DNA from: Escherichia phage BEU35 | Direction: 5' to 3' (one strand) | DNA length: 44,569 nt | Sequence record: OM632668.1 | Part shown: positions 1-44,569 of the stretch, one piece after another | Numbering within the stretch: the first letter of the stretch is position 1 | Layout of the letters: the number at the start of each line of letters is the position of its first letter | The notes under the pieces: model-generated | The model's database searches: none | The model's input: the letters and a program-made list of their open reading frames with translations, nothing else | What the model was told of the DNA's origin: nothing | Program-made: the position numbers and the translations under genes

Positions 1-27
1 ACGGAGCCGCAAGGCGCGTTTCTCGGT

Positions 28-1251
28 ATGCATTGCAAGTTTCCGGCATTCGTAGCTGGCTTCGGTACGGGTAAATCCGAAGTTATGTGCAACTCTGCAC
101 TACTCGACAGCATGGAAGGTGGTAGCGATTCTATCATCGCCATGTATGAGCCGACCTATGACCTGGTGCGCCTCATCCTTGCACCGCGTATGGAAGAAAA
201 GCTCACCGACTGGGGTATCCGGTACAAATACAACAAGTCTGACAACATAATCTATACGTCTTCCGGACAATTTGGGGATTTTGTTCTGCGTACACTTGAT
301 AATCCAGCAAGAATCGTTGGCTACGAATCGTTTCGTGCGAAAATCGACGAGTTGGACACCCTTAACATGGAGCACGCCGAGCACGCGTGGAACAAAGTCA
401 TCGCCCGTAACCGCCAGTTGCCGCGGACATATAAACCTATTACACCGAAACCTGCTAATACCGTTTCCGTGTTCACTACTCCGGAAGGATTCCGTTTCGT
501 ACATGACCGCTGGGTAGTCAAAAAGAATCCAGGCTACGAGATGATTCAGGCGTCCACCCTGTCTAACCCGTTCCTGCCAGAAGATTATGTGCAGTCGTTA
601 CGCGACACATACCCAGGTCAGTTGATTGACGCCTACATCGACGGCAAGTTCGTAAACCTCACGTCCGGAACGGTATACTATGCTTACGACCGCAGGAAAA
701 ACAGCAGTCGCGAAACAATCAATCCCGGCGAGACTCTGTATATTGGGCAGGACTTTAACGTAGGTCACATGGCGAGCACGGTTTACGTGCAACGCGGTAA
801 GGTCTGGCACGCTGTTGCCGAGTTGGTTGATATGTTCGATACGCCTGACGTAGTGCGGGCCATAACTGAGCGATGGAAAAGTAAGGGCCACTATATCGTT
901 ATGTACCCGGACGCCAGCGGCAAAAACCGTAAAAGCAACAACGCCAGTACCTCAGACATCGCTCAGTTACAGCAGGCCGGTTTCGAAGTACGCGCCAAAT
1001 CAACAAACCCGCCGGTTAAAGACCGCGTATCAGCAATGAACAAGGCGCTTGAATCTGGTATGGTCATGATTAATGAGCAGGCATGCCCGGTTACGGCGCG
1101 ATGCCTTGAGCAACAGGCTTACGACAAGAACGGCGAACCAGATAAATCGGGTGGTGTGGACCACCAGAACGACGGGACCACATATCCTATCGCGTATGAA
1201 ATGCCGATTCGCAAACCAGTTATTAATGTCCCGGTGACTTTCGCACTTTAA
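28..1251 (+). CDS. terL: terminase large subunit; frame is open to position 1, so the true 5' end may lie upstream of the window
   Basis: Walker A-like GFGTGKSE near N-terminus, Walker B-like IDELD, Asp-rich C-terminal nuclease-type region; followed 12 nt later by portal-like ORF. Confidence 0.8.
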   Translation: MHCKFPAFVAGFGTGKSEVMCNSALLDSMEGGSDSIIAMYEPTYDLVRLILAPRMEEKLTDWGIRYKYNKSDNIIYTSSGQFGDFVLRTLDNPARIVGYESFRAKIDELDTLNMEHAEHAWNKVIARNRQLPRTYKPITPKPANTVSVFTTPEGFRFVHDRWVVKKNPGYEMIQASTLSNPFLPEDYVQSLRDTYPGQLIDAYIDGKFVNLTSGTVYYAYDRRKNSSRETINPGETLYIGQDFNVGHMASTVYVQRGKVWHAVAELVDMFDTPDVVRAITERWKSKGHYIVMYPDASGKNRKSNNASTSDIAQLQQAGFEVRAKSTNPPVKDRVSAMNKALESGMVMINEQACPVTARCLEQQAYDKNGEPDKSGGVDHQNDGTTYPIAYEMPIRKPVINVPVTFAL

Positions 1252-1263: not shown

Positions 1264-1818
1264 ATGTTAACTATGAACGGTCAGAATCAGGGTGTTAAGA
1301 CAAAACACCGGGAATGGCTGCACCACTTCGATAAATGGCAGAAGGTGCGCCACGCGCTGGAAGGCGACCTTATCCGCTATCTGCGCAACGTTGGGAAGAA
1401 TGAGCCGGACCCGACCTACGCGGCACAGCGCCAGGAAGAATACGAGAACGGCGCTATCTGTTACAACTTCACCAAGAGAACGCTGGCGGGGATGGTCGGC
1501 AGTGTCATGCGCAAAGACCCCGAGCAGATTATACCGCCTGAACTGGAGTACCTGTTACGTAACGCGGACGGTTCTGGTGTCGGGCTGTGGCAGCACGCAC
1601 AGGATACGCTAATGGAGATTGATTCGGTGGGTCGTGGCGGGTTGCTGGTGGACGCCCCGGAGACAGCCGCGGCAACGGCAGCCGAACAGAACGCGGGGTT
1701 ACTAAACCCGGTCATTGCATTCTACACTGCTGAGAACATCATCAACTGGCGACTGACCCGCATCGGCTCAGTGAACCGTGTGACGATGGTCGTGTTTAAG
1801 CTCCACCTGAGCTTGTGA
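1264..1818 (+). CDS. portal-like protein, N-terminal segment only (184 codons then stop)
   Basis: Canonical position immediately after terL; recalled resemblance to N-terminal region of P22 gp1-type portals (e.g. DSVGRGGLLVDA); too short for a complete portal. Confidence 0.45.
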   Translation: MLTMNGQNQGVKTKHREWLHHFDKWQKVRHALEGDLIRYLRNVGKNEPDPTYAAQRQEEYENGAICYNFTKRTLAGMVGSVMRKDPEQIIPPELEYLLRNADGSGVGLWQHAQDTLMEIDSVGRGGLLVDAPETAAATAAEQNAGLLNPVIAFYTAENIINWRLTRIGSVNRVTMVVFKLHLSL

Positions 1819-3306: not shown

Positions 3307-3308
3307 TA

Positions 3309-4358: not shown

Positions 4359-4373
4359 GGTTAAGCTATAATC

Positions 4374-4400
4374 GAGAGGGACTTCGGTCCCTCTTTTCAT
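4374..4400 (+). terminator. intrinsic terminator after major capsid gene
   Basis: AGAGGGA-cttcgg-TCCCTCT stem-loop followed by TTTT. Confidence 0.6.
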
Positions 4401-4419
4401 TTACTAAGAGGATTCCTCA

Positions 4420-4761
4420 ATGGCAGACGTATTGAAACGACGCATCACCGGCGTCTCCGCTGACGCCCCGGGCGCTAAGATTGACATGGCGACTATTTCT
4501 CCTGCGTCTTTCTCTCCCGCGCTGGCGGCTACTACCGCAGTGACCACAGGTGAAACTATGACGCTGACCGTAACCGTAGCTGGCGGTCTGGAGCCGTATT
4601 CTTACCAGTGGTATAAGAATAACAACGCTATCGCCGGGGCTAACGCGGCTACCTACGCTAAAGCGTCAACCACTACCGCTGATTCTGGTACGTATAAAGT
4701 GGTTGTTCACGATGTGTATGGTAATATTATCTCCAGCAGCACTGTAGCAACTGTGTCTTAA
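4420..4761 (+). CDS. Ig-like domain protein, possible head decoration protein
   Basis: Ig-like beta-strand pattern (LTVTVAGG...YQWYKNN...SGTYKVVVHDVYGN); location after capsid gene. Confidence 0.5.
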   Translation: MADVLKRRITGVSADAPGAKIDMATISPASFSPALAATTAVTTGETMTLTVTVAGGLEPYSYQWYKNNNAIAGANAATYAKASTTTADSGTYKVVVHDVYGNIISSSTVATVS

Positions 4762-30663: not shown

Positions 30664-30891
30664 TTACTCGCCGTCGCCTTCTGTAAGGCTATCGTCTATT
30701 AATTCAAATTTACCGTTTGAGTGTTGGATAGCTTCTTGCCCGCAATGGTCGCAAACCACCAGTTTATCGAATCCGTCAAACTCGTCCCCGACTACGCAAG
30801 AAAGTACAAATTTATGTTTTGTACATACTTCTTGATGTTCACCGAAAATTACCCGGAAACATTTAGTTATAGCTCCAGTGATTATGTTCAT
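30664..30891 (-). CDS. small Cys/His-rich protein, paralog A
   Basis: Near-identical core to ORF 35878..36090 (QEVCT-HKFVLSCVVGDEFDGFDKL-VCDHCGQEAIQHSNGKFELI). Confidence 0.55.
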   Translation of the reverse strand: MNIITGAITKCFRVIFGEHQEVCTKHKFVLSCVVGDEFDGFDKLVVCDHCGQEAIQHSNGKFELIDDSLTEGDGE

Positions 30892-33996: not shown

Positions 33997-34196
33997 TTCA
34001 CGTTCTCCTTAATCCACGCTTCCACTTTCTCCGGGTCGAACGTACCGGGCTGCCGGCGACCCATAATGCGGATACAACAATCAGGGAACCTCCCACTCTT
34101 TAACCAGTTATTAAGCGTGCGGCGAGTAACCCCGATACGCTCAGCTACTTCATTCTGTGTCATTCTCAAACCCTCATTATCAGTTAACGAAACCAA
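33993..34196 (-). CDS. AlpA/MerR-like helix-turn-helix DNA-binding protein
   Basis: MTQNEVAERIGVTRRTLNNW HTH signature. Confidence 0.55.
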   Translation of the reverse strand: MVSLTDNEGLRMTQNEVAERIGVTRRTLNNWLKSGRFPDCCIRIMGRRQPGTFDPEKVEAWIKENVK

Positions 34197-34599
34197 GTAT
34201 ACATTGCGAATAATGGGAAATCAAACATAATCGCACCTATTGACATTATGAAAATCTTCGTTTAAGGTGCTTCTATATCTTAGTTACTTTGATTCCTGTT
34301 CACCTTGTAATACCTGCTTGAAACGCAGCGGCGCCAAAGCGCCAGCGAAGTGTTAAGCAGCAGATTACTGAACATAAGAATTACCGTAACTTTCCTTCCG
34401 TAGTATCTCTGGTTGCCCTGGGCAAGCTCTATTCTCATCGGCAGCATATCTCTTAAGTATCTGATAATTAAAAGTTTCTATAGTTGCCGTGAGCAAGGTA
34501 GAGAGTACTTCACTCCGCTGGGGTGGGCTAACGCCCACCCACTGCGTTGCGTACTCTTTTAAGAAACGAAAGAATCACAACGGCAACGTAACTATTCTC

Positions 34600-34662: not shown

Positions 34663-34854
34663 ATGTTTAAGAAGGGTCAGTTGGTTAAAACTAAACGCGG
34701 AGGGCAATATGTATTAGTGTTGCAGGACGAGAGCGAGTATGACGAGGATAATCTGGTTGACGTATGGGGTCTGGTAAGAAAGAAAACTGGGTTCGCCTCA
34801 CGCGATAATTTAGAACTCATCGGCAACAATTTTAAATTCAAAGGGGTGAAGTGA
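34663..34854 (+). CDS. hypothetical protein
   Basis: GAGGAG RBS; first gene of rightward operon. Confidence 0.4.
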   Translation: MFKKGQLVKTKRGGQYVLVLQDESEYDEDNLVDVWGLVRKKTGFASRDNLELIGNNFKFKGVK

Positions 34855-35060
34855 TGGAAGAATTAATTTGTATTGAATCCCGCCAGGATTGGTTTGTGAA
34901 AGGTAACAAATATTCGTCAGGAGTATATTACGACGGCCGTCGATACGTTTTAGATGAAGACGGTGATGAATGGGATTTAGAGGACACTGTGGGCGAGACT
35001 TTAACCGTTAGTTTTCTTCAATGTTGTTTCCGCATCATTCACAACGGCATCGAATCATGA
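34851..35060 (+). CDS. hypothetical protein
   Basis: 4-nt overlap coupling. Confidence 0.4.
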   Translation: MMEELICIESRQDWFVKGNKYSSGVYYDGRRYVLDEDGDEWDLEDTVGETLTVSFLQCCFRIIHNGIES

Positions 35061-35142
35061 GGCTCGTGCCGACGACTCTGAGGGAGGTTGCCGTGGATAA
35101 TATTTTAATTGTCAGCGCTGTTTATGTGGGGTGGAGGTTGAT

Positions 35143-35337
35143 ATGAGTCCATATAATGAATTCCGCTTACGCCGTCTTGTTGGTGGGCTGCGCGCCGCCG
35201 AGTTTGGCGTTGAATGTTGGGAAAAGGCGAAGTACACCCCATGGAAGTCGTGGAATTTGGCCCACGCTAAGGCGGTAGCGCAGTACCGGGAGTACAAGTT
35301 AAATAGTTTCCTAAAGCACCACGGGGTAGAGCTATGA
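35143..35337 (+). CDS. hypothetical protein
   Basis: GGTGGAGG RBS upstream of ATG. Confidence 0.4.
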   Translation: MSPYNEFRLRRLVGGLRAAEFGVECWEKAKYTPWKSWNLAHAKAVAQYREYKLNSFLKHHGVEL

Positions 35338-35477
35338 GAGAAGCATTCGAACGGTGGGCCGTCGTCGAGGGTCTGCCGGTTAACAAGGGTTCAAAGAAAG
35401 AGTACCTGAACGTTAAGACGCGTCTTGCGTGGCGGGCGTGGAAAGCTGGTGTGCAGTATGTGATGAATACGAGGTGA
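35334..35477 (+). CDS. small hypothetical protein (47 aa, below ORF-track cutoff)
   Basis: ATGA overlap upstream, next gene 3 nt downstream. Confidence 0.35.
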   Translation: MREAFERWAVVEGLPVNKGSKKEYLNVKTRLAWRAWKAGVQYVMNTR

Positions 35478-35480
35478 TTT

Positions 35481-35669
35481 ATGGGTGAGTGGATTAAGTG
35501 TAGTGAGCGGATGCCGGAGCCTTATGAATACGTTCTTGTAACTGATTGTTTTGTTGGCTGTGAGGTTATGCGTGTTAATTCGGATGGCTACTGGGGACCA
35601 GCGAAGAGTTTATACCACGGCGATATCTCCCACTGGATGCCCTTACCTGAGCCACCGGCGCCGGTGTAA
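35481..35669 (+). CDS. DUF551-like small protein
   Basis: C-terminal WMPLPEPP pattern. Confidence 0.45.
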   Translation: MGEWIKCSERMPEPYEYVLVTDCFVGCEVMRVNSDGYWGPAKSLYHGDISHWMPLPEPPAPV

Positions 35670-35703
35670 CAGGTCAATAGTTTACTATTTGGCTTTGTGA
35701 CTT

Positions 35704-35740
35704 ACGCTGCTACACAGCAGCGTATCATTTTTCTCATTTT
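35704..35740 (+). terminator. intrinsic terminator
   Basis: ACGCTGCT-acac-AGCAGCGT followed by T-rich run. Confidence 0.55.
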
Positions 35741-35817
35741 TGTTCTATTTCACCAAACGCAACAATCGAAGCGACTATTGCGGGAGATGCAACAATACAA
35801 ACACCAATAAAATTTAC

Positions 35818-35846
35818 TTGCACGCTAAGATAGAATAGGCTACTAT
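35818..35846 (+). promoter_or_regulatory. sigma70-like promoter (TTGCAC-N17-TACTAT) for rightward early operon
   Basis: Hexamer spacing read from sequence; GAGAGGAG RBS precedes first gene. Confidence 0.45.
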
Positions 35847-35877
35847 TCATTTACACAAACGAGAGGAGAGACAGAAG

Positions 35878-36090
35878 ATGAATGTAGTGGCGAGATGTTT
35901 TCACGCAATTTTCGGCGCACCGCAAGAAGTATGCACTAACCATAAATTTGTACTTTCTTGCGTGGTGGGGGATGAGTTTGATGGGTTCGATAAACTTATT
36001 GTCTGTGACCATTGCGGGCAAGAAGCTATACAACACTCAAACGGTAAATTCGAACTAATTAACGAGGAAGGGGATGGGGATGGTGAGTAG
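35878..36090 (+). CDS. small Cys/His-rich protein, paralog B
   Basis: Paralog of 30664..30891 in inverted orientation. Confidence 0.55.
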   Translation: MNVVARCFHAIFGAPQEVCTNHKFVLSCVVGDEFDGFDKLIVCDHCGQEAIQHSNGKFELINEEGDGDGE

Positions 36091-36562
36091 CAAAAACGAA
36101 GTATTCGAGTACCTGATTGACCAGTTACGGCAGCACGTAAATAGCCACCCGCACAAGCAGCAGTGCGAAGACCTGGCGCATGAGGTGCAGTCACTCAAGA
36201 ATCAGTTACGTGATGCGTCAGCACTGGTGGCGGAGTTACATGAAACAATAAAACTAATGAACGAGGACTTTAACCGTGCAACCGGGCGAGGTGGCTCACT
36301 GCCGAAAGGGGAGAGCTACGTAGTAGGTGAACATGGGCCCGAGCAACCCGGTTGCCGTAAGGAAGATACTCAGGAATGCGAGCACTCTTGGATTATTATG
36401 CTTGGGTTGTTTCTCAGCGAAGGCAATACGAACAACGTTCCTGGTAGTGAGCTTTGCTCTAAATGTGGTAAACGTGAGTGGGACGACAAGGTATATAAAC
36501 CGAAAAACGATACTCAGGAATGTGAGCATGAGTGGAGATGTAAGACGGTTTTTTGGCAATAG
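36074..36562 (+). CDS. hypothetical protein with internal DTQECEH(S/E)W repeat
   Basis: Two copies of a ~20-nt direct repeat giving KEDTQECEHSW and NDTQECEHEW. Confidence 0.45.
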   Translation: MGMVSSKNEVFEYLIDQLRQHVNSHPHKQQCEDLAHEVQSLKNQLRDASALVAELHETIKLMNEDFNRATGRGGSLPKGESYVVGEHGPEQPGCRKEDTQECEHSWIIMLGLFLSEGNTNNVPGSELCSKCGKREWDDKVYKPKNDTQECEHEWRCKTVFWQ

Positions 36563-36607
36563 ACCTGGTGTTCCGTATTGCCGTAAATGTGGTGTGGAGG
36601 CGAAGCA

Positions 36608-36811
36608 ATGACCAGCATCTTATTTATCTGGGTACTATCCGCGGGCCAGATGCAACTAGCGGCATCAGAAACGTTTTATTCGATGGAGGCGTGCCAGTCA
36701 GCGGCGCGTGCCGCAGAGAACGCGCACTTCCTGTTTCAGGGCGACAAGCCCATCGATTCAGAGGTACGCGCTATCTGCTCACCTAAGCGACTTGGTAAAC
36801 AGGAGAAGTGA
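36608..36811 (+). CDS. small secreted/membrane-anchored protein
   Basis: GGAGG RBS; N-terminal hydrophobic signal-like segment. Confidence 0.4.
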   Translation: MTSILFIWVLSAGQMQLAASETFYSMEACQSAARAAENAHFLFQGDKPIDSEVRAICSPKRLGKQEK

Positions 36812-36996
36812 TTATGGTGCGGAGATATACCTACGACCAGATATTCGGGTTTACTCCTGATGTTGAGGGCGTGTTAGTGCTTTACGAAGATTACGCGAAA
36901 CTTGAAGCTGAGTTACAGAAATACAAAGACCAGTACCCTGATTATGTCGAGTGCGCGAACTGTGGGTCGGTTACACATGTGGAGGGAGTGGAGTGA
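36808..36996 (+). CDS. hypothetical protein
   Basis: Overlap coupling. Confidence 0.4.
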   Translation: MIMVRRYTYDQIFGFTPDVEGVLVLYEDYAKLEAELQKYKDQYPDYVECANCGSVTHVEGVE

Positions 36997-37289
36997 TGTC
37001 GTTAGCAACTGACATCCTGAAACGAAGCGGCCTTGCGCCGCTGTCACCGAGAGCGAAGACACGTATACACAAGCGTCGCCGTAACGTGCTGTACCCAGAG
37101 ATTCAGGACAGACGTAAAGCTATCCGCGCCTGTGGATTCCAGAACGGGAAGGCTGTGAATCTCGGTGAGTTTAAAACGCAGGAGCGCGCTGCAATCGCTA
37201 ATCGGTTATTTAATTACTGGAAATCGCTGGGATACGATGATATTCCGACGAAACCACAGAGACGACAATACATCTGGCGTCATAAATAA
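36996..37289 (+). CDS. putative AP2-like DNA-binding protein
   Basis: NGKAVNLGEFKTQERAAIANRL resembles AP2 core; GGAGGG RBS. Confidence 0.3.
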   Translation: MSLATDILKRSGLAPLSPRAKTRIHKRRRNVLYPEIQDRRKAIRACGFQNGKAVNLGEFKTQERAAIANRLFNYWKSLGYDDIPTKPQRRQYIWRHK

Positions 37290-37364
37290 ACCGTTATTAA
37301 GATAATTCCTAACCGTGCTATCCTCCAGTTACTGCATACTTAATACGCACCTGGAGGATTCATC

Positions 37365-37673
37365 TTGGATAAATTTACTGAAACAGTGACAGGCTGGCTT
37401 CTCGCTGCCGCGCTAGCCGGAGGGGTAATCGGACTACGACAACATAAGTCTGTTATTTCTGGCCCCATCGACGGATTCTGCTTTATCGCAACCGGCTTCA
37501 CTTGCGCTGTATTCGGCGCGCCTCTTGCCGCTCAATGGTTCGGTATTACCGGAGAGCGCGAGATAGCTGGCCTCGGATTCATCATCGCAATTCTCTGGAT
37601 GCCCATCTATTCCCGTCTCTCCGGTATCGTCTCTGGAGAATACATCGCTCGTCGAGGAGGCACAGATGAATGA
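37365..37673 (+). CDS. holin (TTG start)
   Basis: Hydrophobic TM segments, charged C-terminus, GGAGGA RBS, first gene of lysis cassette. Confidence 0.55.
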   Translation: MDKFTETVTGWLLAAALAGGVIGLRQHKSVISGPIDGFCFIATGFTCAVFGAPLAAQWFGITGEREIAGLGFIIAILWMPIYSRLSGIVSGEYIARRGGTDE

Positions 37674-37938
37674 GTTATTCTGGTTCGGTGGTATGCTGGC
37701 AATCGGGGGCACATCGCTGTTTAATGTGTATCATCCCAGCGTGGACGACGGATTATTTGGCCGGGTGCTCTATATCCTGACTGCCATCGTCTGTGCTGCC
37801 GGATGTATCCACCTGTTACAGGGCAGCATGTCACCAACGCTGCCTGAGACGTTAATCACATTAGTTGCGCTGCGTCAGATTCGCCAGGTGTGGCTGTCAT
37901 ACGGAGGACATAAGCGTGTCTCGAAATATTTCAGATAA
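37666..37938 (+). CDS. second small membrane protein of lysis cassette (holin/antiholin-like)
   Basis: Two predicted TM helices; overlaps holin stop. Confidence 0.45.
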   Translation: MNELFWFGGMLAIGGTSLFNVYHPSVDDGLFGRVLYILTAIVCAAGCIHLLQGSMSPTLPETLITLVALRQIRQVWLSYGGHKRVSKYFR

Positions 37939-38404
37939 TGGATTGCATTTTACCGCCGCGTTCGAGGGATTCCGAGGAACTGCGTATCGCGCTACACCGA
38001 ATGAGAAGTACCTGACTATTGGGTATGGAAGCTATGGCCCGCATGTTAAGGCGGGGCAGACCATCACTCCAGGACAAGGCCTCCTGTTACTTAATCGCGA
38101 TATGGCTAAAGCCGTAGCTGCGGTTGATGCGGCAGCGCACCATTCACTGACACAGGCACAGTTCGACGCTGTGTGTGACCTGGTCTACAACGCAGGCGCT
38201 GGCGTGATTGCCGCTACCACGGGCACAGGTAAGGCGCTGCGTTCTGGTGACATCGAGACGCTGCGGGCTAAGCTGACACTGTTCATCAACCAGAACGGCA
38301 GACCACTACTCGGCCTGCGTCGCCGTACAGCAGGTCGTCTGGCGCTGTTTGACGGTAAACCGTGGCAAGAGGCGGAGGCAATTGGGCGCGCGGTGAAAGG
38401 TTGA
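37916..38404 (+). CDS. endolysin, GH24 lysozyme-like (GTG start)
   Basis: FEGFRGTAYRATPNEKYLTIGYG catalytic Glu-Asp-Thr-type signature; GGAGGA RBS. Confidence 0.7.
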   Translation: MSRNISDNGLHFTAAFEGFRGTAYRATPNEKYLTIGYGSYGPHVKAGQTITPGQGLLLLNRDMAKAVAAVDAAAHHSLTQAQFDAVCDLVYNAGAGVIAATTGTGKALRSGDIETLRAKLTLFINQNGRPLLGLRRRTAGRLALFDGKPWQEAEAIGRAVKG

Positions 38405-38468
38405 CACCTAAGACTAATCCGACGATACTTAAATCACCTCCTGTTCCATCCCTCTGCTCTCCAGTTTT

Positions 38469-38501
38469 ATCCCGGCCCTGACCCAGCCGGGATTTTTTTT
38501 T
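38469..38501 (+). terminator. strong intrinsic terminator after lysis cassette
   Basis: ATCCCGGC-loop-GCCGGGAT followed by T9. Confidence 0.7.
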
Positions 38502-38523
38502 ATCTATTTTCGGTAATGACTAG

Positions 38524-38552
38524 TTGACTATTACCCTCGACCCTATTATATT
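38524..38552 (+). promoter_or_regulatory. sigma70-like promoter (TTGACT-N17-TATATT)
   Basis: Hexamers and spacing read from sequence. Confidence 0.45.
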
Positions 38553-38585
38553 TACTCCATCGACAACGAGAACGGAGTAGAGAAG

Positions 38586-38783
38586 ATGAGTAACGTACCG
38601 ACAATCGCAATAACCGAGGAACTTGAAGCCAAATGTATCGCATCAGTTATAGGGAATGGTTCGGTGGAAAAACTACAGATGAGGGCCGCTGCGGGCTACA
38701 TACGCAGGGCTAATAGCGCGCAGACTGATGTTTTACGTAAACGTTACCTCGTGAAAGCGTTAGAAATACTGGAGAATAACTAA
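38586..38783 (+). CDS. hypothetical protein
   Basis: GGAG RBS; first of a string of coupled small genes. Confidence 0.4.
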   Translation: MSNVPTIAITEELEAKCIASVIGNGSVEKLQMRAAAGYIRRANSAQTDVLRKRYLVKALEILENN

Positions 38784-38932
38784 TGAAAATCACAGATATC
38801 GAAGCATTCAAAGACGCGCAACTGATGGCACGTATCGCCGTTAGTAACCTTAGCAACAGCATCCCGGCAGACGCGTTCTGGTTCGCTGCGATGCAGACAC
38901 TTAAAGCAGCATATGCAGGAGAGAAGAAATGA
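38783..38932 (+). CDS. small hypothetical protein (49 aa)
   Basis: TAATG overlap upstream, ATGA overlap downstream. Confidence 0.35.
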   Translation: MKITDIEAFKDAQLMARIAVSNLSNSIPADAFWFAAMQTLKAAYAGEKK

Positions 38933-39126
38933 AAGTTAAAGCAGCTAAAATTCTCTGGTTACCCGCCCTTGACTATGTGACAGAGGGTAAAGTGTATGAC
39001 GTATACAACCCGAAAACTACTGGTTTTGGTTATATAGTTGCCGATGACGGCTGTGATATTTACATAGACTTTGGTAGCGATGAAGGTGATGGTTTCCACG
39101 GCGTTAAATGGGAGATTGTCGAATGA
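38929..39126 (+). CDS. hypothetical protein
   Basis: Overlap coupling. Confidence 0.4.
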   Translation: MKVKAAKILWLPALDYVTEGKVYDVYNPKTTGFGYIVADDGCDIYIDFGSDEGDGFHGVKWEIVE

Positions 39127-39281
39127 GCGAACAAACACCAATCAGCCAACCGTTACGAGTAGGCCGTAAAGTCAGTCACACCCCGTTCCCGACACGCGAG
39201 GAACTGATGAAACGTAACAGTTTCCCGGGGCCGGACAAGAACAAGTATCTCAATCGCATGTGGGGAGAGCGTAAAGAATGA
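39123..39281 (+). CDS. small hypothetical protein (52 aa)
   Basis: ATGA overlaps at both ends. Confidence 0.35.
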   Translation: MSEQTPISQPLRVGRKVSHTPFPTREELMKRNSFPGPDKNKYLNRMWGERKE

Positions 39282-39463
39282 CTGACCGCGAATATGAAAA
39301 GATGATGGTTGAGGCCGTTAACAGCGGCGTAGACATCGGACACGTGATGTGCGTCCTGAATACTAAAATCGCGGTAGCCGAGCAAATGGTCGAGTCGCTT
39401 TACGAGACGCGCCGTGAACTGATTAACCGCTTCAACCTGAACAAAGGTGACACCAATGCCTAA
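39278..39463 (+). CDS. hypothetical protein
   Basis: Overlap coupling. Confidence 0.4.
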   Translation: MTDREYEKMMVEAVNSGVDIGHVMCVLNTKIAVAEQMVESLYETRRELINRFNLNKGDTNA

Positions 39464-39743
39464 AATCACAATCGCATCTCTCGAGCGCCGTATTCTGGTG
39501 CTTGAGTCGGAGAAACAGACGTTAGGCGGGCAACTGTCGATTAACGGTGAGTTTCAGCTGGAGGCGTTCCGTATACTCCTCGGCGTTATGAAGCAGGAAC
39601 CCAGCGCATACGCGGGAGTGTTCCTTGACGAGGAAGGTTCGCAGACACTAAGTTACTACGCTACCGAAGAAGAATTAGCGTTCGACGGCCCCGCGGTATC
39701 TATCCCGCTGTTCGATAACTGGATGGTGTACGACTATGACTAA
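39456..39743 (+). CDS. hypothetical protein
   Basis: Overlap coupling. Confidence 0.4.
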   Translation: MPKITIASLERRILVLESEKQTLGGQLSINGEFQLEAFRILLGVMKQEPSAYAGVFLDEEGSQTLSYYATEEELAFDGPAVSIPLFDNWMVYDYD

Positions 39744-39921
39744 AGCGCCTGAACCAGTAGTTATCGATGGCGTCCTGTGGAAGCCATACTCGGTTTACCA
39801 CATCGACGCCGACGGGAAGAAGTTTAGCTTCTACATTTTTGCAATTAGCCGTGAGCACGCCGCTTGTGTGGTTGACGATATTCGAGAAACGGCGTGGCTT
39901 GGTGATGAGATAGCGGGGTGA
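39736..39921 (+). CDS. hypothetical protein
   Basis: Overlap coupling. Confidence 0.4.
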   Translation: MTKAPEPVVIDGVLWKPYSVYHIDADGKKFSFYIFAISREHAACVVDDIRETAWLGDEIAG

Positions 39922-39925
39922 GAGT

Positions 39926-40009
39926 ATGAGTCTCGAGGTGGTTATCGGTCTGGTGGGTCTTAGTTACTTCATTGGGCTGTTGGTTGGGTTTCTGTGGGGT
40001 AAATACTAA
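39926..40009 (+). CDS. very small hydrophobic peptide (27 aa)
   Basis: Translation MSLEVVIGLVGLSYFIGLLVGFLWGKY; stop overlaps next ATG. Confidence 0.25.
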   Translation: MSLEVVIGLVGLSYFIGLLVGFLWGKY

Positions 40010-40179
40010 TGTTCAGTGACATTAACGCGGCAATCGAAGAAGCAATCTGGCGTCGCTACAACGGCGAGCAACAACGGCATTTCTGCCTGGTGCAACGCGG
40101 TAACATGATTGCCGTAGTGCAGGACCGCGATAACAAATATCCGAATGCGATGTGGACAACGAGGAATTTTTTAGGATGA
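40009..40179 (+). CDS. small hypothetical protein (56 aa)
   Basis: TAATG and ATGA overlaps with neighbours. Confidence 0.3.
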   Translation: MFSDINAAIEEAIWRRYNGEQQRHFCLVQRGNMIAVVQDRDNKYPNAMWTTRNFLG

Positions 40180-40412
40180 TTACCAGCATTCCGAACCTGA
40201 TTAAAGAATTCGGCACGATGGCCGAGACATGCCGGCAAACCGGCATCAACGAAATGACGATTGCGAAGTACAGCAAAGACGTTGATTGCGAGCGCCACGT
40301 AATTTATAACAATCGTCTGATGACACATGTTAAGACAAGCCCGGTGTTATTCACGCGCCGAGGTATCACTAAAACTGAGCAACGCATTGCTAAAGGGGAG
40401 AGTGGGGAATGA
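40176..40412 (+). CDS. hypothetical protein
   Basis: Overlap coupling. Confidence 0.4.
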   Translation: MITSIPNLIKEFGTMAETCRQTGINEMTIAKYSKDVDCERHVIYNNRLMTHVKTSPVLFTRRGITKTEQRIAKGESGE

Positions 40413-40591
40413 TTGAGATTTTGAGGGCTACGAATGTTGCTGGTGACCTGGTGTTTTGGCTGGCCTTTCTCGGTGTGCTGATAAAACAACCGACTCTGTT
40501 TAACAGTCTCCCTCGTTACCTGTGGTGGCCTATGTTTTTAGGCATGGGTGTATCAGGCGTGGCAGGCATCCTTTTGTGGTTTTTCAAATGA
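40409..40591 (+). CDS. small membrane protein
   Basis: Two hydrophobic helices. Confidence 0.4.
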   Translation: MIEILRATNVAGDLVFWLAFLGVLIKQPTLFNSLPRYLWWPMFLGMGVSGVAGILLWFFK

Positions 40592-40693
40592 GACTACTAA
40601 TCATCCCTAACGCCTGGGCCATTCCCGTAGCCAACGACCATTACGGCGGCGACGGTAAAAGAGCGCAACGACACGGCCTATACAACTGATACA

Positions 40694-40718
40694 AGCCCTC
40701 TACGGAGGGCTTTTCTGT
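40694..40718 (+). terminator. intrinsic terminator before packaging genes
   Basis: GCCCTC-tacg-GAGGGC followed by TTTTCTGT. Confidence 0.55.
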
Positions 40719-40810
40719 ACATCCCGCCCAATCCCCTTATATAATCTATTTAGACGCGTAGGGCGCGTCTGGTGCGCTCTGATGGTCAGACGCATATGCA
40801 AGGGGATTCT

Positions 40811-41320
40811 ATGAAGCTGAAACTTAAGCAGCCATCGCCAGAGGTGGTGCAAGCTGCACATGAAGAAGCTGTTAGCGCAAACCGTCGCCGTAAACAACCG
40901 CGCGGTAAACAGAGCCTTTATCAATCATCCCGTAATTCCGCTGCGCTGTGGGACCCGGACTATTGCGACGAATTGATTCGTTTCTTTGACCGCACGTCGT
41001 GGGAGCTTGTGCCAACGTCTAAGGGTGATGAACGCCCACTGATTCAGGATAAGCCGCCGTCACTGGCCCGCTTCGCCTTACACATCGGCGTAACTATCCC
41101 GATAATTAAGCTGTGGCTGCGCGAGATTCCCGCATTTGCAGAAGCATACGAAACCGCCCAGGCTCTGGAAGAGGCATACTTCACTGAGACAGGGGCTGCG
41201 GGCATCTCGGCTACGTTTGCTGCCGCGAAACTGGGCCTGAATAAAACAGTTGTCGCCGAAGAAGTACGCGACGAGCCAATCAGCGAAGTAACAATTAAGG
41301 TGGTGTCCGGTGAACGTTAA
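40811..41320 (+). CDS. terS: terminase small subunit
   Basis: HTH-like PSLARFALHIGVTIPIIKLWLRE; AAGGGG RBS. Confidence 0.6.
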   Translation: MKLKLKQPSPEVVQAAHEEAVSANRRRKQPRGKQSLYQSSRNSAALWDPDYCDELIRFFDRTSWELVPTSKGDERPLIQDKPPSLARFALHIGVTIPIIKLWLREIPAFAEAYETAQALEEAYFTETGAAGISATFAAAKLGLNKTVVAEEVRDEPISEVTIKVVSGER

Positions 41321-41337
41321 TATCACGGCAACGTGAG

Positions 41338-42279
41338 GTGTGGGAATACTCAGAACCAAGTGCAGAGTTCGAAACAAAGTTCGGTGAACAATACCGCGTT
41401 CTCGATTTGATTGACGGGCGCTACCGCCAGCGAATCTATCGCTTCGATGCCGAAGGTGGCGCTCAGGATGATGTAATCGAAATATTCCCGGAACTTGGCG
41501 AACAGTTACGGGGCAAAATCCCGTTCACGTTCATTGGGGCAAGCAACAACGATGCGACCATTGATGATGCACCTTTGCTGCCGCTTGCTGAACTAAACAT
41601 AGGACATTTCCGCAACAGCGCAGACAATGAGGAGTCCAGTTTCGTTGTAGGTCAGCCAACTCTGTTCATCGCCCCGGGTGAGAACATGAGCATGGAACAG
41701 TGGAAAGAAGCCAACCCACACGGCGTGCGTATGGGGTCACGTTCTGGCCATAACATCGGTTACGGCGGCAATGCGTTTCTGGTCCAGGCCGGTGAGAACA
41801 ACCTAGCCAAGCAGAACATGCTGGATAAAGAGAATCAGGCCATCCAGATTGGTGCGCAGCTTATCACCCCTACCCAGCAAATCACCGCTGAATCAGCCCG
41901 CCTGCAACGTGGTGCCGACACGTCCGTTATGGCGACAATTGCACGTAACGTAAGCATGGCGTATACCGATGCGCTAAAGTGGGTTGCGGGTATGCTTGGG
42001 CTTAGTGACGGCACTGAAATTGAGTTCAAACTGAACATGGAGTTCTTCCTGCAACCAATGACCGCCCAGGACCGCGCTCAGTGGATGGCGGATATTAACG
42101 CGGGCCTGTTACCGGCTACCGCTTACTATGCCGCGTTGCGTAAGGCGGGGGTAACTGACTGGACAGACGAGGACATTCAGAACGCTATCGAGGATGCGCC
42201 GCTGCCGTTAGGTGCTGTTACTCAGGTGGCGGGGGAGATTCCGCAGTCGGCGCAGCAACAGGACACCACTCAGCCGTAA
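41338..42279 (+). CDS. portal-like protein, C-terminal segment (GTG start in ORF track)
   Basis: Recalled resemblance to P22 gp1-type portal core (TLFIAPGENMSMEQW vs PFFWPEQIAGFEHMY); immediately upstream of Mu-F-type gene. Confidence 0.45.
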   Translation: MWEYSEPSAEFETKFGEQYRVLDLIDGRYRQRIYRFDAEGGAQDDVIEIFPELGEQLRGKIPFTFIGASNNDATIDDAPLLPLAELNIGHFRNSADNEESSFVVGQPTLFIAPGENMSMEQWKEANPHGVRMGSRSGHNIGYGGNAFLVQAGENNLAKQNMLDKENQAIQIGAQLITPTQQITAESARLQRGADTSVMATIARNVSMAYTDALKWVAGMLGLSDGTEIEFKLNMEFFLQPMTAQDRAQWMADINAGLLPATAYYAALRKAGVTDWTDEDIQNAIEDAPLPLGAVTQVAGEIPQSAQQQDTTQP

Positions 42280-42289
42280 GTTCACATAT

Positions 42290-42310
42290 AGCCCCGAAAG
42301 GGGCTTTCTT
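42290..42310 (+). terminator. terminator-like hairpin between portal-like ORF and head morphogenesis gene
   Basis: AGCCCC-gaaa-GGGGCT followed by TTCTT. Confidence 0.4.
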
Positions 42311-42315
42311 ATAGT

Positions 42316-44286
42316 ATGCTATTAACTTTAGTACCACAGGGTTTAACTATGAGCTTACTTACATCCCTCATCAGCCATCAGATATGGCTGCAACGCACCG
42401 CATCCGGTGAGGTGAAAGACCTCACACCGTTCATTCAGGAGATGCGGGATGAAATTAAACGGCAGGTGCTGTTATTCGGTGACGACGGTCGTAGCACTGC
42501 GCGACTGAATAAATTGTTACGCGACCTTGAGGAAGCACTAACCGGACTTACGGGCGACTGGCAGACAAAGCTGACAGAAGACCTTAAGGAACTGGCGGCG
42601 TATGAGGCCGAGTGGAACGTAAAGACTCTGACCGCCAACGTTAACGCGGAATTTGTTACCCCTACCGCGGAACAGGTGTGGGCCGCTGCCGAGTTTCAGC
42701 CATTATCGTTGAGTGACAAGCCCGTTGATTTCACTAAGCTGATGGACGGCTGGGGTGAAACAGAAGTCGCGCGCCTGGTAACCGGCGTTAAGATGGGCTT
42801 TGTACAAGGCCAAACCACACGGCAGATTGTTAAGAACGTCGTAGGCGCTGGCGGACTGGCGGACATCTCTGAGCGTAACGCGGCCACCGTAATCCGTACT
42901 GCACTGTCTCACGTATCCAACGAAGCACGTAACGAGACGTACCGCCAGAACGACGACATCATCGAGAAATATGAGTGGGTGTCTACGCTGGACAGCCGTA
43001 CCAGTACAACGTGTTTCACGGCTGAAACAGAATTAGCGCCCATCGCGGGGATGGACGCGGTAATGCGCGGACTCTATTCAGGAAAAATCTTTACCATCGA
43101 ACTTTCCAACGGCGAGAAGTTCAGTGGCACCCCGAAACACCCTGTACTCACGCAATACGGATGGACTCCGCTTGATGAACTCGATCCAACTAAGCATGTC
43201 TTGTATACCACTGTTGACAAAGTGACTGTGCTCGAAACAGTGAAGAACATAAACATGCCAGCCAGAGCGGATTATATTTTTAATACGCTCGCTGATTTCC
43301 CCATCAGGAAAATGGTAAGCACGAGTCCCGCGGCAACAGATTTCTATGGCGATGGAGTGGGACTCAATGGCAAAATCGACATTGTACGGGCCGATTGCAA
43401 ACTGCGGAACTACGTCCACGCCAGCGGAATTAAACAATTCAAAAGCGAGGGTTTCAGTCTTATTCATAGCGCCGCTTTGCTGTCGGACGATAGCTCTGGC
43501 GATTTTCTCCTCCGGGGTGAATGTCCTGTGAGTGTGCCCGCGCTTAGCGAGGCCAAGTGTTTTGACCATAGAATAGAAAACTGTTTTGCTTACTTGGGTC
43601 CTTCTTATGCACTCAATAGGCGGGACGCCGGACTCGAACAATTCTATAGCCCTTTTTTGATTCAAAATGGTGTCGTTAGAAACCCAACCACGGGGTCGAT
43701 CATGCATGAGTCCGAGCTTCTTGAGAAATGTTGTTACCGTGGTGGTAGTGACGCCGTAATTCTTGGCTATGATGCTGGCGGGAGTGCCATCTCGGTACAA
43801 AGAGCAAATATCATCCGCATAAGCGTCGAGTTTAGAACGTGCCATGTTTATACCCTCTCTAGTAGTCAAGGATATTATACAGCAGGTAGTGCGATAGTCA
43901 AGAATTGCAGGGCCAGAGACGGAATGACGTGGGAAATCGGTAAAGGTCCGATGCCACCAGCCCATCCTAATTGCCGAAGTACCACTGCACCGGTAATCAG
44001 TTCAGAGTTCGACTTCCTTGATAAAGGCGCAAAACGTGCGGCTAAGGGTGCGGACGGCGGTACTCAGGTAAGCGCAGACACCACTTACTACGAGTTCCTT
44101 AAACAACAACCGGCGTGGTTTCAGGACCAGGCCCTCGGCCCGGTGCGAGGTAAGATTTTCCGTAACAGCGGTATATCGCCGGAAGAGTTTCGCGTAATAT
44201 CTGTAGATGGTTTCGGGAATCCGCTCACGCTTAAGCAGATGGCGGAACTCGATAAACGTGTTGCTGATTATCTGAAAGGGGAATAA
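42316..44286 (+). CDS. Mu F / SPP1 gp7-type head morphogenesis protein precursor with in-frame intein (alternative start ATG 42349)
   Basis: Extein DSRTSTT...CRARDGMTWEIGKGPMPPAHPNCRS matches Mu-F-type conserved core; interrupted by 298 codons with intein blocks. Confidence 0.7.
   Translation: MLLTLVPQGLTMSLLTSLISHQIWLQRTASGEVKDLTPFIQEMRDEIKRQVLLFGDDGRSTARLNKLLRDLEEALTGLTGDWQTKLTEDLKELAAYEAEWNVKTLTANVNAEFVTPTAEQVWAAAEFQPLSLSDKPVDFTKLMDGWGETEVARLVTGVKMGFVQGQTTRQIVKNVVGAGGLADISERNAATVIRTALSHVSNEARNETYRQNDDIIEKYEWVSTLDSRTSTTCFTAETELAPIAGMDAVMRGLYSGKIFTIELSNGEKFSGTPKHPVLTQYGWTPLDELDPTKHVLYTTVDKVTVLETVKNINMPARADYIFNTLADFPIRKMVSTSPAATDFYGDGVGLNGKIDIVRADCKLRNYVHASGIKQFKSEGFSLIHSAALLSDDSSGDFLLRGECPVSVPALSEAKCFDHRIENCFAYLGPSYALNRRDAGLEQFYSPFLIQNGVVRNPTTGSIMHESELLEKCCYRGGSDAVILGYDAGGSAISVQRANIIRISVEFRTCHVYTLSSSQGYYTAGSAIVKNCRARDGMTWEIGKGPMPPAHPNCRSTTAPVISSEFDFLDKGAKRAAKGADGGTQVSADTTYYEFLKQQPAWFQDQALGPVRGKIFRNSGISPEEFRVISVDGFGNPLTLKQMAELDKRVADYLKGE
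43012..43905 (+). other. intein (298 codons, Cys1 to Asn298, +1 Cys) within the head morphogenesis gene
   Basis: Starts CFTAETEL; block B-like TPKHPVLTQYGWTPLDEL; ends VYTLSSSQGYYTAGSAIVKN followed by Cys. Confidence 0.65.
43078..43845 (-). CDS. opposite-strand ORF nested in the intein: tandem HTH plus Vsr/DUF559-like nuclease-like region; candidate homing endonuclease (ORF track extends to 43965)
   Basis: AGAGAGG RBS before ATG 43845; HTH-like TPASIIAKNYGVTTTTVTTFLKKLGL and VPPIECIRRTQVSKTVFYSMVKTLGL; PYNVDFAIESHSIAIEI ... RSGWHVYVL. Confidence 0.45.
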   Translation of the reverse strand: MARSKLDAYADDICSLYRDGTPASIIAKNYGVTTTTVTTFLKKLGLMHDRPRGWVSNDTILNQKRAIELFESGVPPIECIRRTQVSKTVFYSMVKTLGLAKRGHTHRTFTPEEKIARAIVRQQSGAMNKTETLAFELFNSAGVDVVPQFAIGPYNVDFAIESHSIAIEICCRGTRAYHFPDGEISERIKNIIRSGWHVYVLHCFEHSHFVNSGIQDMLSWIEFIKRSPSVLREYRVFRGATELLAVGKFDGKDFS

Positions 44287-44569
44287 TGATGGGCTTTTTC
44301 AAAGTAACTGATGTACCGTCGCGTCGCGTAGTCCAGTACGCCCGCGTGTCTGGCTCTGGCGAGAACGTGGTGTTTATTGAAGATGAAAGTGTACTCGGTA
44401 CACCAGTAGACGATATGCCGTTTGCAGACAAGACAGGTATCGCACTCTCTGCCGCTGGTATGCTTTATGAAATTCCGTATCTGGCGGACGCTGGTGACGT
44501 GTATTTCTCTGTGCAACCGAAAGACACTGAACTTACAGATGGCAGCGCAACTATCACTGTCGAAGTTAA
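44286..44569 (+). CDS. hypothetical protein, 3'-truncated by window end
   Basis: ATG overlaps stop of head morphogenesis gene (TAATG); frame open to window end. Confidence 0.4.
   Translation, partial: MMGFFKVTDVPSRRVVQYARVSGSGENVVFIEDESVLGTPVDDMPFADKTGIALSAAGMLYEIPYLADAGDVYFSVQPKDTELTDGSATITVEV

What the first reader, a model, noticed from the sequence alone, without database searches (positions are those of the whole stretch)
41321..42279. Portal C-terminal-like ORF starts 17 nt after terS with no terL in between
The expected order terS-terL-portal-head morphogenesis is broken. terS (40811..41320) is followed directly by a 313-codon ORF with a GTG start and no good ribosome-binding site, whose sequence reads like the central and C-terminal part of a portal and which sits immediately upstream of the Mu-F-type gene. 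terL and the portal N-terminal-like ORF lie about 39.5 kb away at the other end of the window. A 313-aa protein is too short to be a complete portal.
Basis: partly seen in the sequence, partly recalled or inferred. Interest (0 to 1): 0.5.

Follow-up and report, generated by a model that had tools for sequence, protein, structure and literature searches.

The report
Portal gene split by misassembled record
The "half portal gene" next to the small terminase gene is real in this sequence file, but it most likely exists only because a 3.2-kb block of an ordinary coliphage genome was placed at the wrong end of the record, so it is a data artefact rather than new biology.

Summary
terS (40811-41320) is followed after 17 nt by a 313-codon GTG ORF (41338-42279) that has no usable ribosome-binding site. 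That ORF matches positions 183-486 of the 493-position portal profile. The 184-codon ORF at 1264-1818 matches positions 2-180.

The window is a complete 44,569-bp NCBI contig of a Kagunavirus (Guernseyvirinae) E. coli phage. Its 3,239-bp block 41331-44569 (portal codons 179-493, MuF with intein, first 93 codons of the Hoc-like gene) belongs directly after position 1796. Joining 1264-1796 to 41331-42279 gives an exact 1,482-nt, 493-aa portal gene.

An independent assembly (GCA_019312125.1, 43,143-bp contig) carries these blocks at 100% nucleotide identity in the normal order terS-terL-portal-MuF. None of about 370 related phage records has either junction. All 10 contigs with an identical terS have an intact 489-494-aa portal.

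The breakpoints show the cause. One lies exactly at the arbitrary base 1 / last base used by GenBank records of this genus, which is inside terL. The other lies at the first base that differs from the nearest record, BEU33. Both joins are blunt, and the contig ends inside a gene with 556 bp missing.

Verdict: an in-silico block misplacement, not a two-chain portal. Interest is low.

The parts
40811..41320 (+). terS (small terminase subunit), intact, 169 aa. It is the last complete gene of block A.
   Evidence: PHROG 3064 'terminase' at E 5.6e-76. Orthologous to annotated terS in fEg-Eco06 5560-6069 and Golestan 44295-44819. SD energy -7.6 kcal/mol.
41310..41336 (+). Orphaned 5' end of terL. 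GTG 41310 plus 6 further codons (VNVNITA) runs across the false junction into ACG TGA and stops. In intact genomes these 7 codons continue into window position 1.
   Evidence: Translation gives 'VNVNITAT*' in the window, against 'VNVNITATEPQGAFLGMHCKF...' when 41330 is joined to position 1. SD energy is -9.0 kcal/mol at GTG 41310 against -3.8 at ATG 28. terL is called as 423 aa, overlapping terS, in fEg-Eco06, SCS92 and 9 of 10 public contigs.
41330..41331 (.). False junction A|C. Base 41330 corresponds to the last base of the conventional linear record of this genus (BEU33 44050, Golestan 44829). Base 41331 is portal nucleotide 534.
   Evidence: Block maps and sequence views. No shared k-mer of 12 nt or more between block ends. 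The junction 40-mer is absent from IMG/VR and from about 370 related phage records.
41331..42279 (+). 3' 949 nt of the portal gene (codons 179-493 plus stop). The listed ORF 41338-42279 is its in-frame remnant starting at a fortuitous GTG.
   Evidence: DUF4055 at E 2.9e-24. PHROG 145 positions 183-486 of 493. 100% nucleotide identity to L014 8317-9265.
1264..1796 (+). 5' 533 nt of the same portal gene (codons 1-178, with its own start codon and SD).
   Evidence: PHROG 145 positions 2-180. SD energy -5.8 kcal/mol. Joined to 41331-42279 it gives a 1,482-nt, 493-aa portal that is nucleotide-identical to L014 7784-9265 and identical to protein MBW2864212.1.
1796..1818 (+). False junction B|D (1796|1797) and the 22-nt read-through tail (…FKLHLSL*) that ends the N-terminal ORF in unrelated intergenic DNA upstream of the spanin genes.
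   Evidence: Window 1797 aligns to BEU33 4465, fEg-Eco06 11671, Golestan 5003, SCS92 4007 and L014 12112. The junction 40-mer is absent from IMG/VR and from 328 related records.
1..1251 (+). terL from codon 8 onward. The record begins 21 nt inside the gene.
   Evidence: Terminase_6N and Terminase_6C. 100% identical to BEU33 1-1796 and L014 6521-8316.
41331..44569 (+). Misplaced block C. It holds the portal 3' part, MuF with intein (42346-44286) and the first 93 codons of the Hoc-like head-decoration gene (44289-44569), which is cut by the end of the contig.
   Evidence: 3239/3239 nt identical to L014 8317-11555, where it follows block B directly. The Hoc-like ORF is truncated at 93 of 152-153 codons. 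556 bp (L014), or 333-861 bp in other relatives, that link C to D are absent from the window.
41331..41604 (+). 274-bp mosaic patch, the only part of the portal that differs from BEU33 (36 substitutions, 3 amino-acid changes). Its first base is the first base of block C.
   Evidence: mismatch positions; 3 aa differences. The best match in phage records is 93%. The patch is 100% present in L014.

Best explanation
The window is a deposited linear record of an ordinary Kagunavirus (Guernseyvirinae) coliphage in which one block is in the wrong place.

The true circular order is A (…terS), then B (terL plus portal codons 1-178), then C (portal codons 179-493, MuF with intein, Hoc-like gene), then about 0.5 kb (x), then D (spanins, scaffold, capsid…). 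The record reads B-D…A-C. The portal gene is therefore cut at codon 178/179. Its 3' part lands 10 nt after the terS stop codon. A chance in-frame GTG seven bases further on makes it look like a 313-codon ORF.

Nothing suggests that the two pieces are made as separate proteins. In the phage itself there is one 493-aa portal encoded between terL and MuF.

How the error arose is inferred, not shown. There are two likely routes:
- A contig with ends at C|D was 're-started' at the genus-conventional base 1 by moving only the stretch that matched a BEU33-like reference exactly (1-1796).
- A 41.3-kb contig (D…A-B) was treated as circular and rotated, and a second 3.2-kb contig (C) was appended, possibly from a mixture of two closely related phages.
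For: 1. Exact reconstitution. Window 1264-1796 plus 41331-42279 makes 1,482 nt and 493 aa with no base gained or lost. This product aligns over residues 15-492 with a solved single-chain portal, PDB 8xb5 (E 1.8e-68), and the alignment runs straight through the cut.

2. An independent genome has the same DNA in normal order. Contig JAHWEQ010000001.1 of GCA_019312125.1 (L014) carries window 34811-41330 (99.98%), then 1-1796 (100%), then 41331-44569 (3239/3239). After that come 556 bp missing from the window, and then 1797 onward. Its portal gene is nucleotide-identical to the join. The exact 493-aa protein is MBW2864212.1.

3. No relative shares the order. None of 370 and 328 related phage records covers either junction. 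All 10 contigs with an identical terS read terS-terL-portal(489-494 aa)-MuF. The junction 40-mers are absent from IMG/VR.

4. The breakpoints track bookkeeping, not biology.
- Window base 1 and base 41330 coincide with the first and last bases of BEU33 and Golestan, and base 1 is also the first base of the phiEc3 and SCS44 records.
- That point lies 21 nt inside terL, whose real start is GTG 41310 with a -9.0 kcal/mol SD.
- A Kagunavirus paper reports no defined genome termini by PhageTerm (PMC9825357).
- Block B ends at the last base before the first mismatch to BEU33.

5. The joins are blunt, with no repeat of 12 nt or more at any block end.

6. There is no adaptation to a split state. The C fragment has no SD (-1.7 kcal/mol) and no promoter. 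The N fragment runs 22 nt into intergenic DNA. terL is separated from its first 7 codons.

7. The contig ends inside the Hoc-like gene, at 93 of 153 codons.

8. Of the 36 substitutions against BEU33 in the portal 3' part, only 3 change an amino acid. The fragment has therefore evolved as part of a working portal.
Against: - No reads are available, so the absence of molecules spanning 1796|1797 and 41330|41331 is inferred, not observed.
- The record exists in NCBI as a single 44,569-bp contig, so whoever deposited it accepted this order.
- The exact procedure that produced the error cannot be reconstructed. A pure de Bruijn-graph break would be expected to leave k-mer overlaps, and none is present.
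- Block C is 100% like L014. The first 400 nt of D are only 96.7% like L014 but 99.96% like BEU33. The record may therefore also be a chimera of two phages, or it may be a natural mosaic. This cannot be decided here.
Confidence: 0.93

Rival explanations
1. Genuine DNA rearrangement. The sequenced molecule really has block C transposed, for example in a defective or recombinant genome in the lysate, or a rearranged copy carried in a bacterial culture. On this reading the portal gene is truly broken and the genome is non-viable on its own.
For: The sequence is deposited as one contig. Phage genomes in this group are mosaic. The window shows local exchanges relative to BEU33: a 274-bp patch, presence or absence of the intein, and a 171-bp block in a different position.
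Against: - One breakpoint falls exactly on the arbitrary first/last base shared by BEU33, Golestan and other records of the genus, inside terL. A biological event has no reason to do this.
- The other breakpoint falls on the first base that differs from BEU33.
- There is no microhomology at the joins.
- The contig ends in the middle of a gene and 556 bp are missing.
- Three essential genes (terL 5' end, portal, and the terS-terL overlap) would be damaged at once.
Confidence: 0.04
2. A functional two-chain portal. The N-terminal 184-aa and C-terminal 313-aa products are made separately and assemble into the dodecameric portal. This would be a natural split of an essential virion protein.
For: Both fragments are open reading frames, and together they cover the whole portal profile.
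Against: - The C fragment has a GTG start with no SD (-1.7 kcal/mol; 69% of random NTG triplets do as well or better) and no promoter.
- The N fragment ends in a read-through tail of 6-7 residues.
- The cut lies inside a continuous alignment to a solved single-chain portal.
- No relative has separate ORFs.
- The identical DNA is one uninterrupted gene in L014.
- Because the sequence is identical to an intact gene, there has been no time or selection for a split state.
Confidence: 0.01
3. A variant of the artefact explanation: the record is an in-silico chimera of two co-sequenced Kagunaviruses. Contig D…A-B would come from a BEU33-type phage and contig C from an L014-type, intein-bearing phage, and the two were concatenated.
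For: - D…A-B is 99.96-100% identical to BEU33.
- C is 100% identical to L014 and differs from BEU33 by the patch, the intein and a 7-bp indel.
- The first 400 nt of D are only 96.7% identical to L014.
- The block ends sit where the two genome types start to differ (1797) or at the edge of a length-variable region (x, 333-861 bp in relatives).
Against: - Natural mosaicism could give the same identity pattern.
- C crosses several points of difference (patch end, intein edges) without breaking, unlike a simple assembly-graph unitig.
- There are no k-mer overlaps between block ends.
Confidence: 0.35

Closest known systems
Kagunavirus portal protein (e.g. Golestan gp02 YP_009620082.1, fEg-Eco06 XDT02076.1, MBW2864212.1; DUF4055-containing, PHROG 145)
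   Same: The two window ORFs together are this protein. The join is 493 aa, is 100% identical to MBW2864212.1 and to the L014 portal, and is 491/493 identical to the BEU33 product and 481/493 to fEg-Eco06.
   Different: In the window the gene is cut after codon 178 and the halves lie 39.5 kb apart. In every relative it is one gene between terL and MuF.
Solved phage portal structures (PDB 8xb5/8xb6, 506 aa; 11cq; 10ec)
   Same: The joined protein aligns over residues 15-492 with 8xb5 (E 1.8e-68), as a single chain.
   Different: The 313-aa ORF alone lacks the N-terminal ~180 residues of that fold.
Mis-ordered or mis-rotated assemblies of circularly permuted phage genomes (a known class of database artefact; this comparison rests on my own knowledge)
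   Same: The record has an arbitrary linear start copied from a reference, blunt joins, a contig end inside a gene, and breakpoints at the reference's coordinate origin.
   Different: This is not a simple rotation. Two false joins and a missing ~0.5-kb stretch are involved.
Escherichia phage BEU33 (OM632667.1, 'UNVERIFIED_ORG')
   Same: It is the nearest deposited genome. It has the same base 1 and is 99.96-100% identical over blocks B and D…A.
   Different: BEU33 has the normal B-C-x-D order and an intact portal. It lacks the intein. It carries oddities of its own: a 171-bp block inside the helicase-primase gene and a 7-bp frameshift in the Hoc-like gene.

Membership tests
Phage portal protein (PHROG 145 / DUF4055 portals) | Sequence match to the portal profile | tested here: met
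   The 313-aa ORF matches PHROG 145 at E 1.7e-87 and DUF4055 at E 2.9e-24.
Phage portal protein (PHROG 145 / DUF4055 portals) | Full-length single chain covering the whole fold (~490-500 aa) | tested here: not met
   The ORF covers only profile positions 183-486 of 493. This feature is met only after joining it to 1264-1796, which gives 493 aa and aligns 15-492 to PDB 8xb5.
Phage portal protein (PHROG 145 / DUF4055 portals) | Own translation start (start codon with Shine-Dalgarno) and position between terL and MuF | tested here: not met
   GTG 41338 has an SD energy of -1.7 kcal/mol, against -5.8 at the true portal start 1264. The ORF is preceded by terS, not terL.
Naturally split (two-chain) portal, hypothetical | Both halves conserved as separate ORFs in related genomes | tested here: not met
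   No relative or 73 has separate ORFs. The identical DNA is one gene in L014.
Naturally split (two-chain) portal, hypothetical | Both polypeptides present in virions | not testable with these tools
   This needs proteomics of purified particles.
In-silico block misplacement (assembly or record artefact) | Moved block is contiguous and in normal order in an independent, near-identical genome | tested here: met
   In L014 the order is A-B-C-x-D, with 100% identity over B (1796 nt) and C (3239 nt).
In-silico block misplacement (assembly or record artefact) | Breakpoints coincide with arbitrary record coordinates or reference differences rather than biological sites | tested here: met
   The A|C join lies at the last base of the conventional record, inside terL. 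The B|C cut lies at the first mismatch to BEU33.
In-silico block misplacement (assembly or record artefact) | Blunt joins without homology, truncated gene at the contig end, sequence missing | tested here: met
   No shared k-mer of 12 nt or more. The Hoc-like gene is cut at codon 93. 556 bp are absent.
In-silico block misplacement (assembly or record artefact) | No sequencing reads span the false junctions | not testable with these tools
   Raw reads are not available here.

The most novel reading that the evidence does not exclude
The rearranged order is physically real in a propagating phage, and the portal is assembled from two separately translated chains (184 aa and 313 aa). The C-terminal chain would be translated from a GTG without a Shine-Dalgarno sequence just downstream of terS.
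Probability: 0.01. Interest if true: 0.7.

Novelty: not a real feature. Interest (0 to 1): 0.06.

Why it matters
The main consequence is for data hygiene. This public phage record has a mis-ordered 3.2-kb block, lacks about 0.5 kb, and is possibly chimeric. Automatic annotation has already put two truncated "portal" proteins (184 aa and 313 aa) into protein databases.

Anyone using the record for synteny, pangenome, packaging-site or synthetic-biology work would be misled. If the split were real, it would be a first example of a two-chain portal, but the evidence is strongly against that.

Tried and rejected
- **Simple circular permutation.** Rejected, because B-D…A-C is not a rotation of A-B-C-x-D. 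Two false joins are needed.
- **Repeat-mediated recombination or assembly collapse at the joins.** Rejected, because no shared k-mer of 12 nt or more exists between any pair of block ends. There is only a 2-3-nt 'ACG/CG' coincidence.
- **Source record and junctions in public collections.** The exact 40-mers of both junctions are absent from IMG/VR. A block-C-specific 40-mer is absent from IMG/VR, from the GTDB genome representatives and from JGI metagenomes. Block C has no match in complete E. coli genomes.
- The route that worked was the look-up of terS.
- **Literature on BEU33.** Nothing relevant was found.
- **Intein homing as the cause of the rearrangement.** Rejected. The intein flanks are 100% BEU33-like, and the breakpoints are 1.7 kb upstream and 0.66 kb downstream of the intein.
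- **Antisense ORF inside the MuF intein as a possible new finding.** It is real but already described for actinophage minor-capsid inteins.

Full report
**What is in the sequence.** The finding's description is accurate.
- terS runs from ATG 40811 to the stop at 41320 (169 aa; PHROG 3064 'terminase', E 5.6e-76).
- Seventeen nucleotides later a GTG at 41338 opens a 313-codon ORF that ends at 42279.
- Its product matches Pfam DUF4055 (E 2.9e-24) and the portal family PHROG 145 at profile positions 183-486 of 493 (E 1.7e-87).
- The 184-codon ORF at 1264-1818, just after terL (28-1251), matches positions 2-180 of the same profile (E 2.3e-53).
- The GTG has no ribosome-binding site. Its anti-Shine-Dalgarno duplex energy is -1.7 kcal/mol, against -5.8 to -7.8 for real starts in the window, and 69% of all NTG triplets do as well or better.
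- No promoter-like site lies at the junction.

**What the window is.** Megablast places it in the genus Kagunavirus (Guernseyvirinae), which are E. coli siphophages. The exact 184-aa and 313-aa products are each on record from one NCBI contig of 44,569 bp, so the window is a whole deposited contig. The nearest record is Escherichia phage BEU33 (OM632667.1, labelled UNVERIFIED_ORG).

**Block map against BEU33 and four other genomes.**

| Block | Window coordinates | Match |
|---|---|---|
| B | 1-1796 | BEU33 1-1796, 100% |
| D…A | 1797-41330 | BEU33 4465-44050, 99.96-100%, apart from two small differences |
| C | 41331-44569 | BEU33 1797-4131 |

- Block C carries an extra 897-bp insert, the MuF intein.
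- BEU33 4132-4464 has no counterpart in the window. The equivalent stretch is 556 bp in fEg-Eco06, SCS92 and L014, and 861 bp in Golestan.
- The window therefore reads B-D…A-C, whereas every relative reads A-B-C-x-D.

**The two ORFs are one gene cut in two.** Joining 1264-1796 to 41331-42279 gives 1,482 nt and 493 aa with the frame preserved (TT|A = Leu). The product is 491/493 identical to the BEU33 portal. It aligns as one chain over residues 15-492 with the solved portal 8xb5 (E 1.8e-68), and the alignment runs through the cut. The exact 493-aa sequence exists as MBW2864212.1 on an independent 43,143-bp contig.

**Decisive comparison.** I looked up contigs that encode the identical terS. 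This returned that contig, GCA_019312125.1 JAHWEQ010000001.1 (locus L014). At nucleotide level it carries, in this order:
- window 34811-41330 (99.98%);
- window 1-1796 (1796/1796);
- window 41331-44569 (3239/3239);
- 556 bp absent from the window;
- window 1797 onward (96.7% over the 400 nt available).

Its portal gene is nucleotide-identical to the join. All ten contigs with the identical terS show terS-terL-portal(489-494 aa)-MuF. None of 370 and 328 related phage records holds either window junction in one place. Both junction 40-mers are absent from IMG/VR.

**Why this is an artefact and not a rearranged phage.**
1. Window base 1 and base 41330 are exactly the first and last bases of BEU33 and Golestan, and base 1 is also the first base of the phiEc3 and SCS44 records.
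   - That linearisation point is arbitrary. It lies 21 nt inside terL.
   - The real terL start is the GTG at window 41310 (SD -9.0 kcal/mol, against -3.8 for ATG 28). terL is called as 423 aa overlapping terS in fEg-Eco06, SCS92 and nine public contigs.
   - A Kagunavirus study found no defined termini with PhageTerm (PMC9825357).
   - In the window those first seven terL codons run into block C and stop ('VNVNITAT*').
2. Block B ends at the last base before the first difference from BEU33. All 36 portal differences lie in 41331-41604, and the first is base 41331 itself. A breakpoint defined by identity to a reference sequence points to sequence handling, not to recombination in a cell.
3. 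The joins are blunt, with no repeat of 12 nt or more between any block ends.
4. The contig ends at codon 93 of the 152-153-codon Hoc-like gene, and the linking ~0.5 kb is missing.
5. Neither fragment shows any adaptation to separate expression.
6. Only 3 of the 36 substitutions change the protein.

**How the error probably arose (inference).** There are two possibilities:
- A contig linearised at C|D was re-started at the conventional base 1 by moving only the stretch that matched a BEU33-like reference exactly.
- A 41.3-kb contig (D…A-B) was treated as a closed circle and rotated, and a 3.2-kb contig (C) was appended.

C is 100% L014-like, while D is BEU33-like (99.96%) and only 96.7% L014-like at its start. 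The record may therefore also mix two co-sequenced phages, although natural mosaicism would look the same. BEU33 has oddities of its own, which suggests an error-prone pipeline in this group of records. It has a 171-bp block sitting inside its helicase-primase gene, a 7-bp frameshift in the Hoc-like gene, and a one-codon gap at the intein site.

**Rivals.**
- A physically real rearrangement (about 0.04) cannot be excluded without reads. It would need a biological breakpoint to fall on a database convention.
- A functional two-chain portal (about 0.01) is contradicted by the lack of translation signals, the identity to an intact gene, and the absence of any relative with separate ORFs.

**Comparison with known things and novelty.** The ORF is the 3' two thirds of a standard Kagunavirus portal gene. 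The 'feature' (a split portal, terS next to portal) is not a biological feature. The practical value of the result is to flag the record and the two truncated portal proteins it has seeded in databases.

**Side observation that was followed up.** The adjacent MuF gene carries a 298-aa class-1-type intein (Cys1 … Asn, +1 Cys; window 43012-43905). Its antisense strand, in the same codon register, holds a 255-295-codon ORF (43078-43845/43965).
- Homologous antisense ORFs of 291-340 codons lie inside the MuF genes of Gordonia phage Vivi2, Aaphi23 and Idiomarinaceae phage 1N2-2.
- Given the sense protein and local codon usage, the chance of an open antisense frame is 1e-4, 0.015, 7e-11 and 5e-12 respectively.
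- Synonymous-codon permutation shows that each frame is more conserved than the other frame alone would explain (z 7.9-21 and 4.8-12.8).
- The product has tandem HTH domains, above Pfam cut-offs in the distant homologues, and a Vsr-like PD-(D/E)XK core.
- An AlphaFold model (pLDDT 73.7) matches the I-Bth0305I homing-endonuclease catalytic domain, NGO0050 and Vsr (Foldseek probabilities 0.87-0.99).
- Antisense VSR-like homing endonucleases in minor-capsid inteins have already been reported for actinophages (bioRxiv 10.1101/2025.01.02.630785). This is a further member in enterobacterial and other proteobacterial phages, not a new kind.
- The 897-bp insert is 99.6-99.9% identical in only 3 of about 394 related records, whose flanks are 92-97% identical. 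This is consistent with active homing.

Noticed in passing
window 43012-43905 (+) intein in MuF; antisense ORF 43078-43965 (-), likely start ATG 43845: The MuF intein is dual-coding. In the same codon register, its antisense strand encodes a 255-295-aa protein with two HTH domains and a Vsr-like PD-(D/E)XK nuclease.
- Homologous open antisense ORFs sit inside the MuF genes of Gordonia phage Vivi2, Aaphi23, Idiomarinaceae phage 1N2-2 and many Jerseyviruses.
- Both frames are under protein-level selection. The chance of an open antisense frame ranges from 0.015 (Vivi2) down to 5e-12, and permutation z-scores are 5-21.
- The AlphaFold model matches the I-Bth0305I, NGO0050 and Vsr folds.
- Antisense VSR-like endonucleases in minor-capsid inteins are already reported for actinophages (bioRxiv 10.1101/2025.01.02.630785). 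Here the architecture extends to coliphages and other proteobacterial phages.
- Supporting calls: 12, 40, 43, 46-49, 53, 54, 56, 57, 63-66, 69.
   Followed up: yes
window 43008-43904: The 897-bp intein insert is 99.6-99.9% identical in only 3 of about 394 related phage records (fEg-Eco06, KMB36, Ec1-ASingh). Their flanking DNA is only 92-97% identical, which is the signature of a recently homing element. BEU33 lacks the insert and also lacks one extra codon at the insertion site (…SRTST|CRARDG, against …SRTSTI|C in Golestan).
   Followed up: partly
window 35895-36065; BEU33 (L001) 34180-34350: A 171-bp block lies inside an intact 70-aa ORF in the window (35878-36090). In the otherwise identical BEU33 record the block is missing from that ORF and sits instead inside the 3' end of the helicase-primase gene. 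This looks like a second cut-and-paste type error, this time in BEU33.
   Followed up: partly
window 30664-30891 (-) and 35878-36090 (+): There are two inverted paralogous small Cys-rich genes (75 aa and 70 aa, about 85% nucleotide identity, CxxC-type motif 'VCDHCGQE'), about 5 kb apart. One lies next to the cro-like region. Their function is unknown.
   Followed up: no
window 41331-41604: A 274-bp mosaic patch in the portal gene has 36 substitutions against BEU33 (13%), of which only 3 change an amino acid. The sequence is then 100% identical for the next 1.4 kb. The best match in phage records is 93% (Bas74), and L014 is identical. The patch is a short recombination tract whose left edge coincides with the false junction.
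   Followed up: partly
window 41310-41330 and 1-30: The start coordinate shared by several GenBank records of this genus (BEU33, Golestan, phiEc3, SCS44 and others) lies 21 nt inside terL. The likely true start is a GTG with a strong SD (AAGGTGG, -9.0 kcal/mol) that overlaps the end of terS by 11 nt. Those records annotate a 407-aa terL from an internal ATG with a weak SD.
   Followed up: partly
window 44289-44569 and the contig end: The Hoc-like head-decoration gene is cut at codon 93 of 152-153 by the end of the contig. The 556 bp that follow in L014 are absent from the window; the equivalent stretch is 333-861 bp in other relatives and length-variable. BEU33 carries a 7-bp deletion that frameshifts this gene.
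   Followed up: partly
window 1797-2194 versus 41331-44569: Block C is 100% identical to L014. The start of block D is only 96.7% identical to L014 but 99.96% identical to BEU33. The record is therefore either a natural mosaic or a chimera of two co-sequenced phages.
   Followed up: partly
window 42290-42305: A GC-rich hairpin with a GAAA loop followed by a T-rich tail (AGCCCCGAAAGGGGCT TTCTTAT) lies between the portal stop codon and MuF. It is terminator-like and lies immediately upstream of the upstream ATG at 42316; the MuF start used in relatives is at 42346.
   Followed up: no
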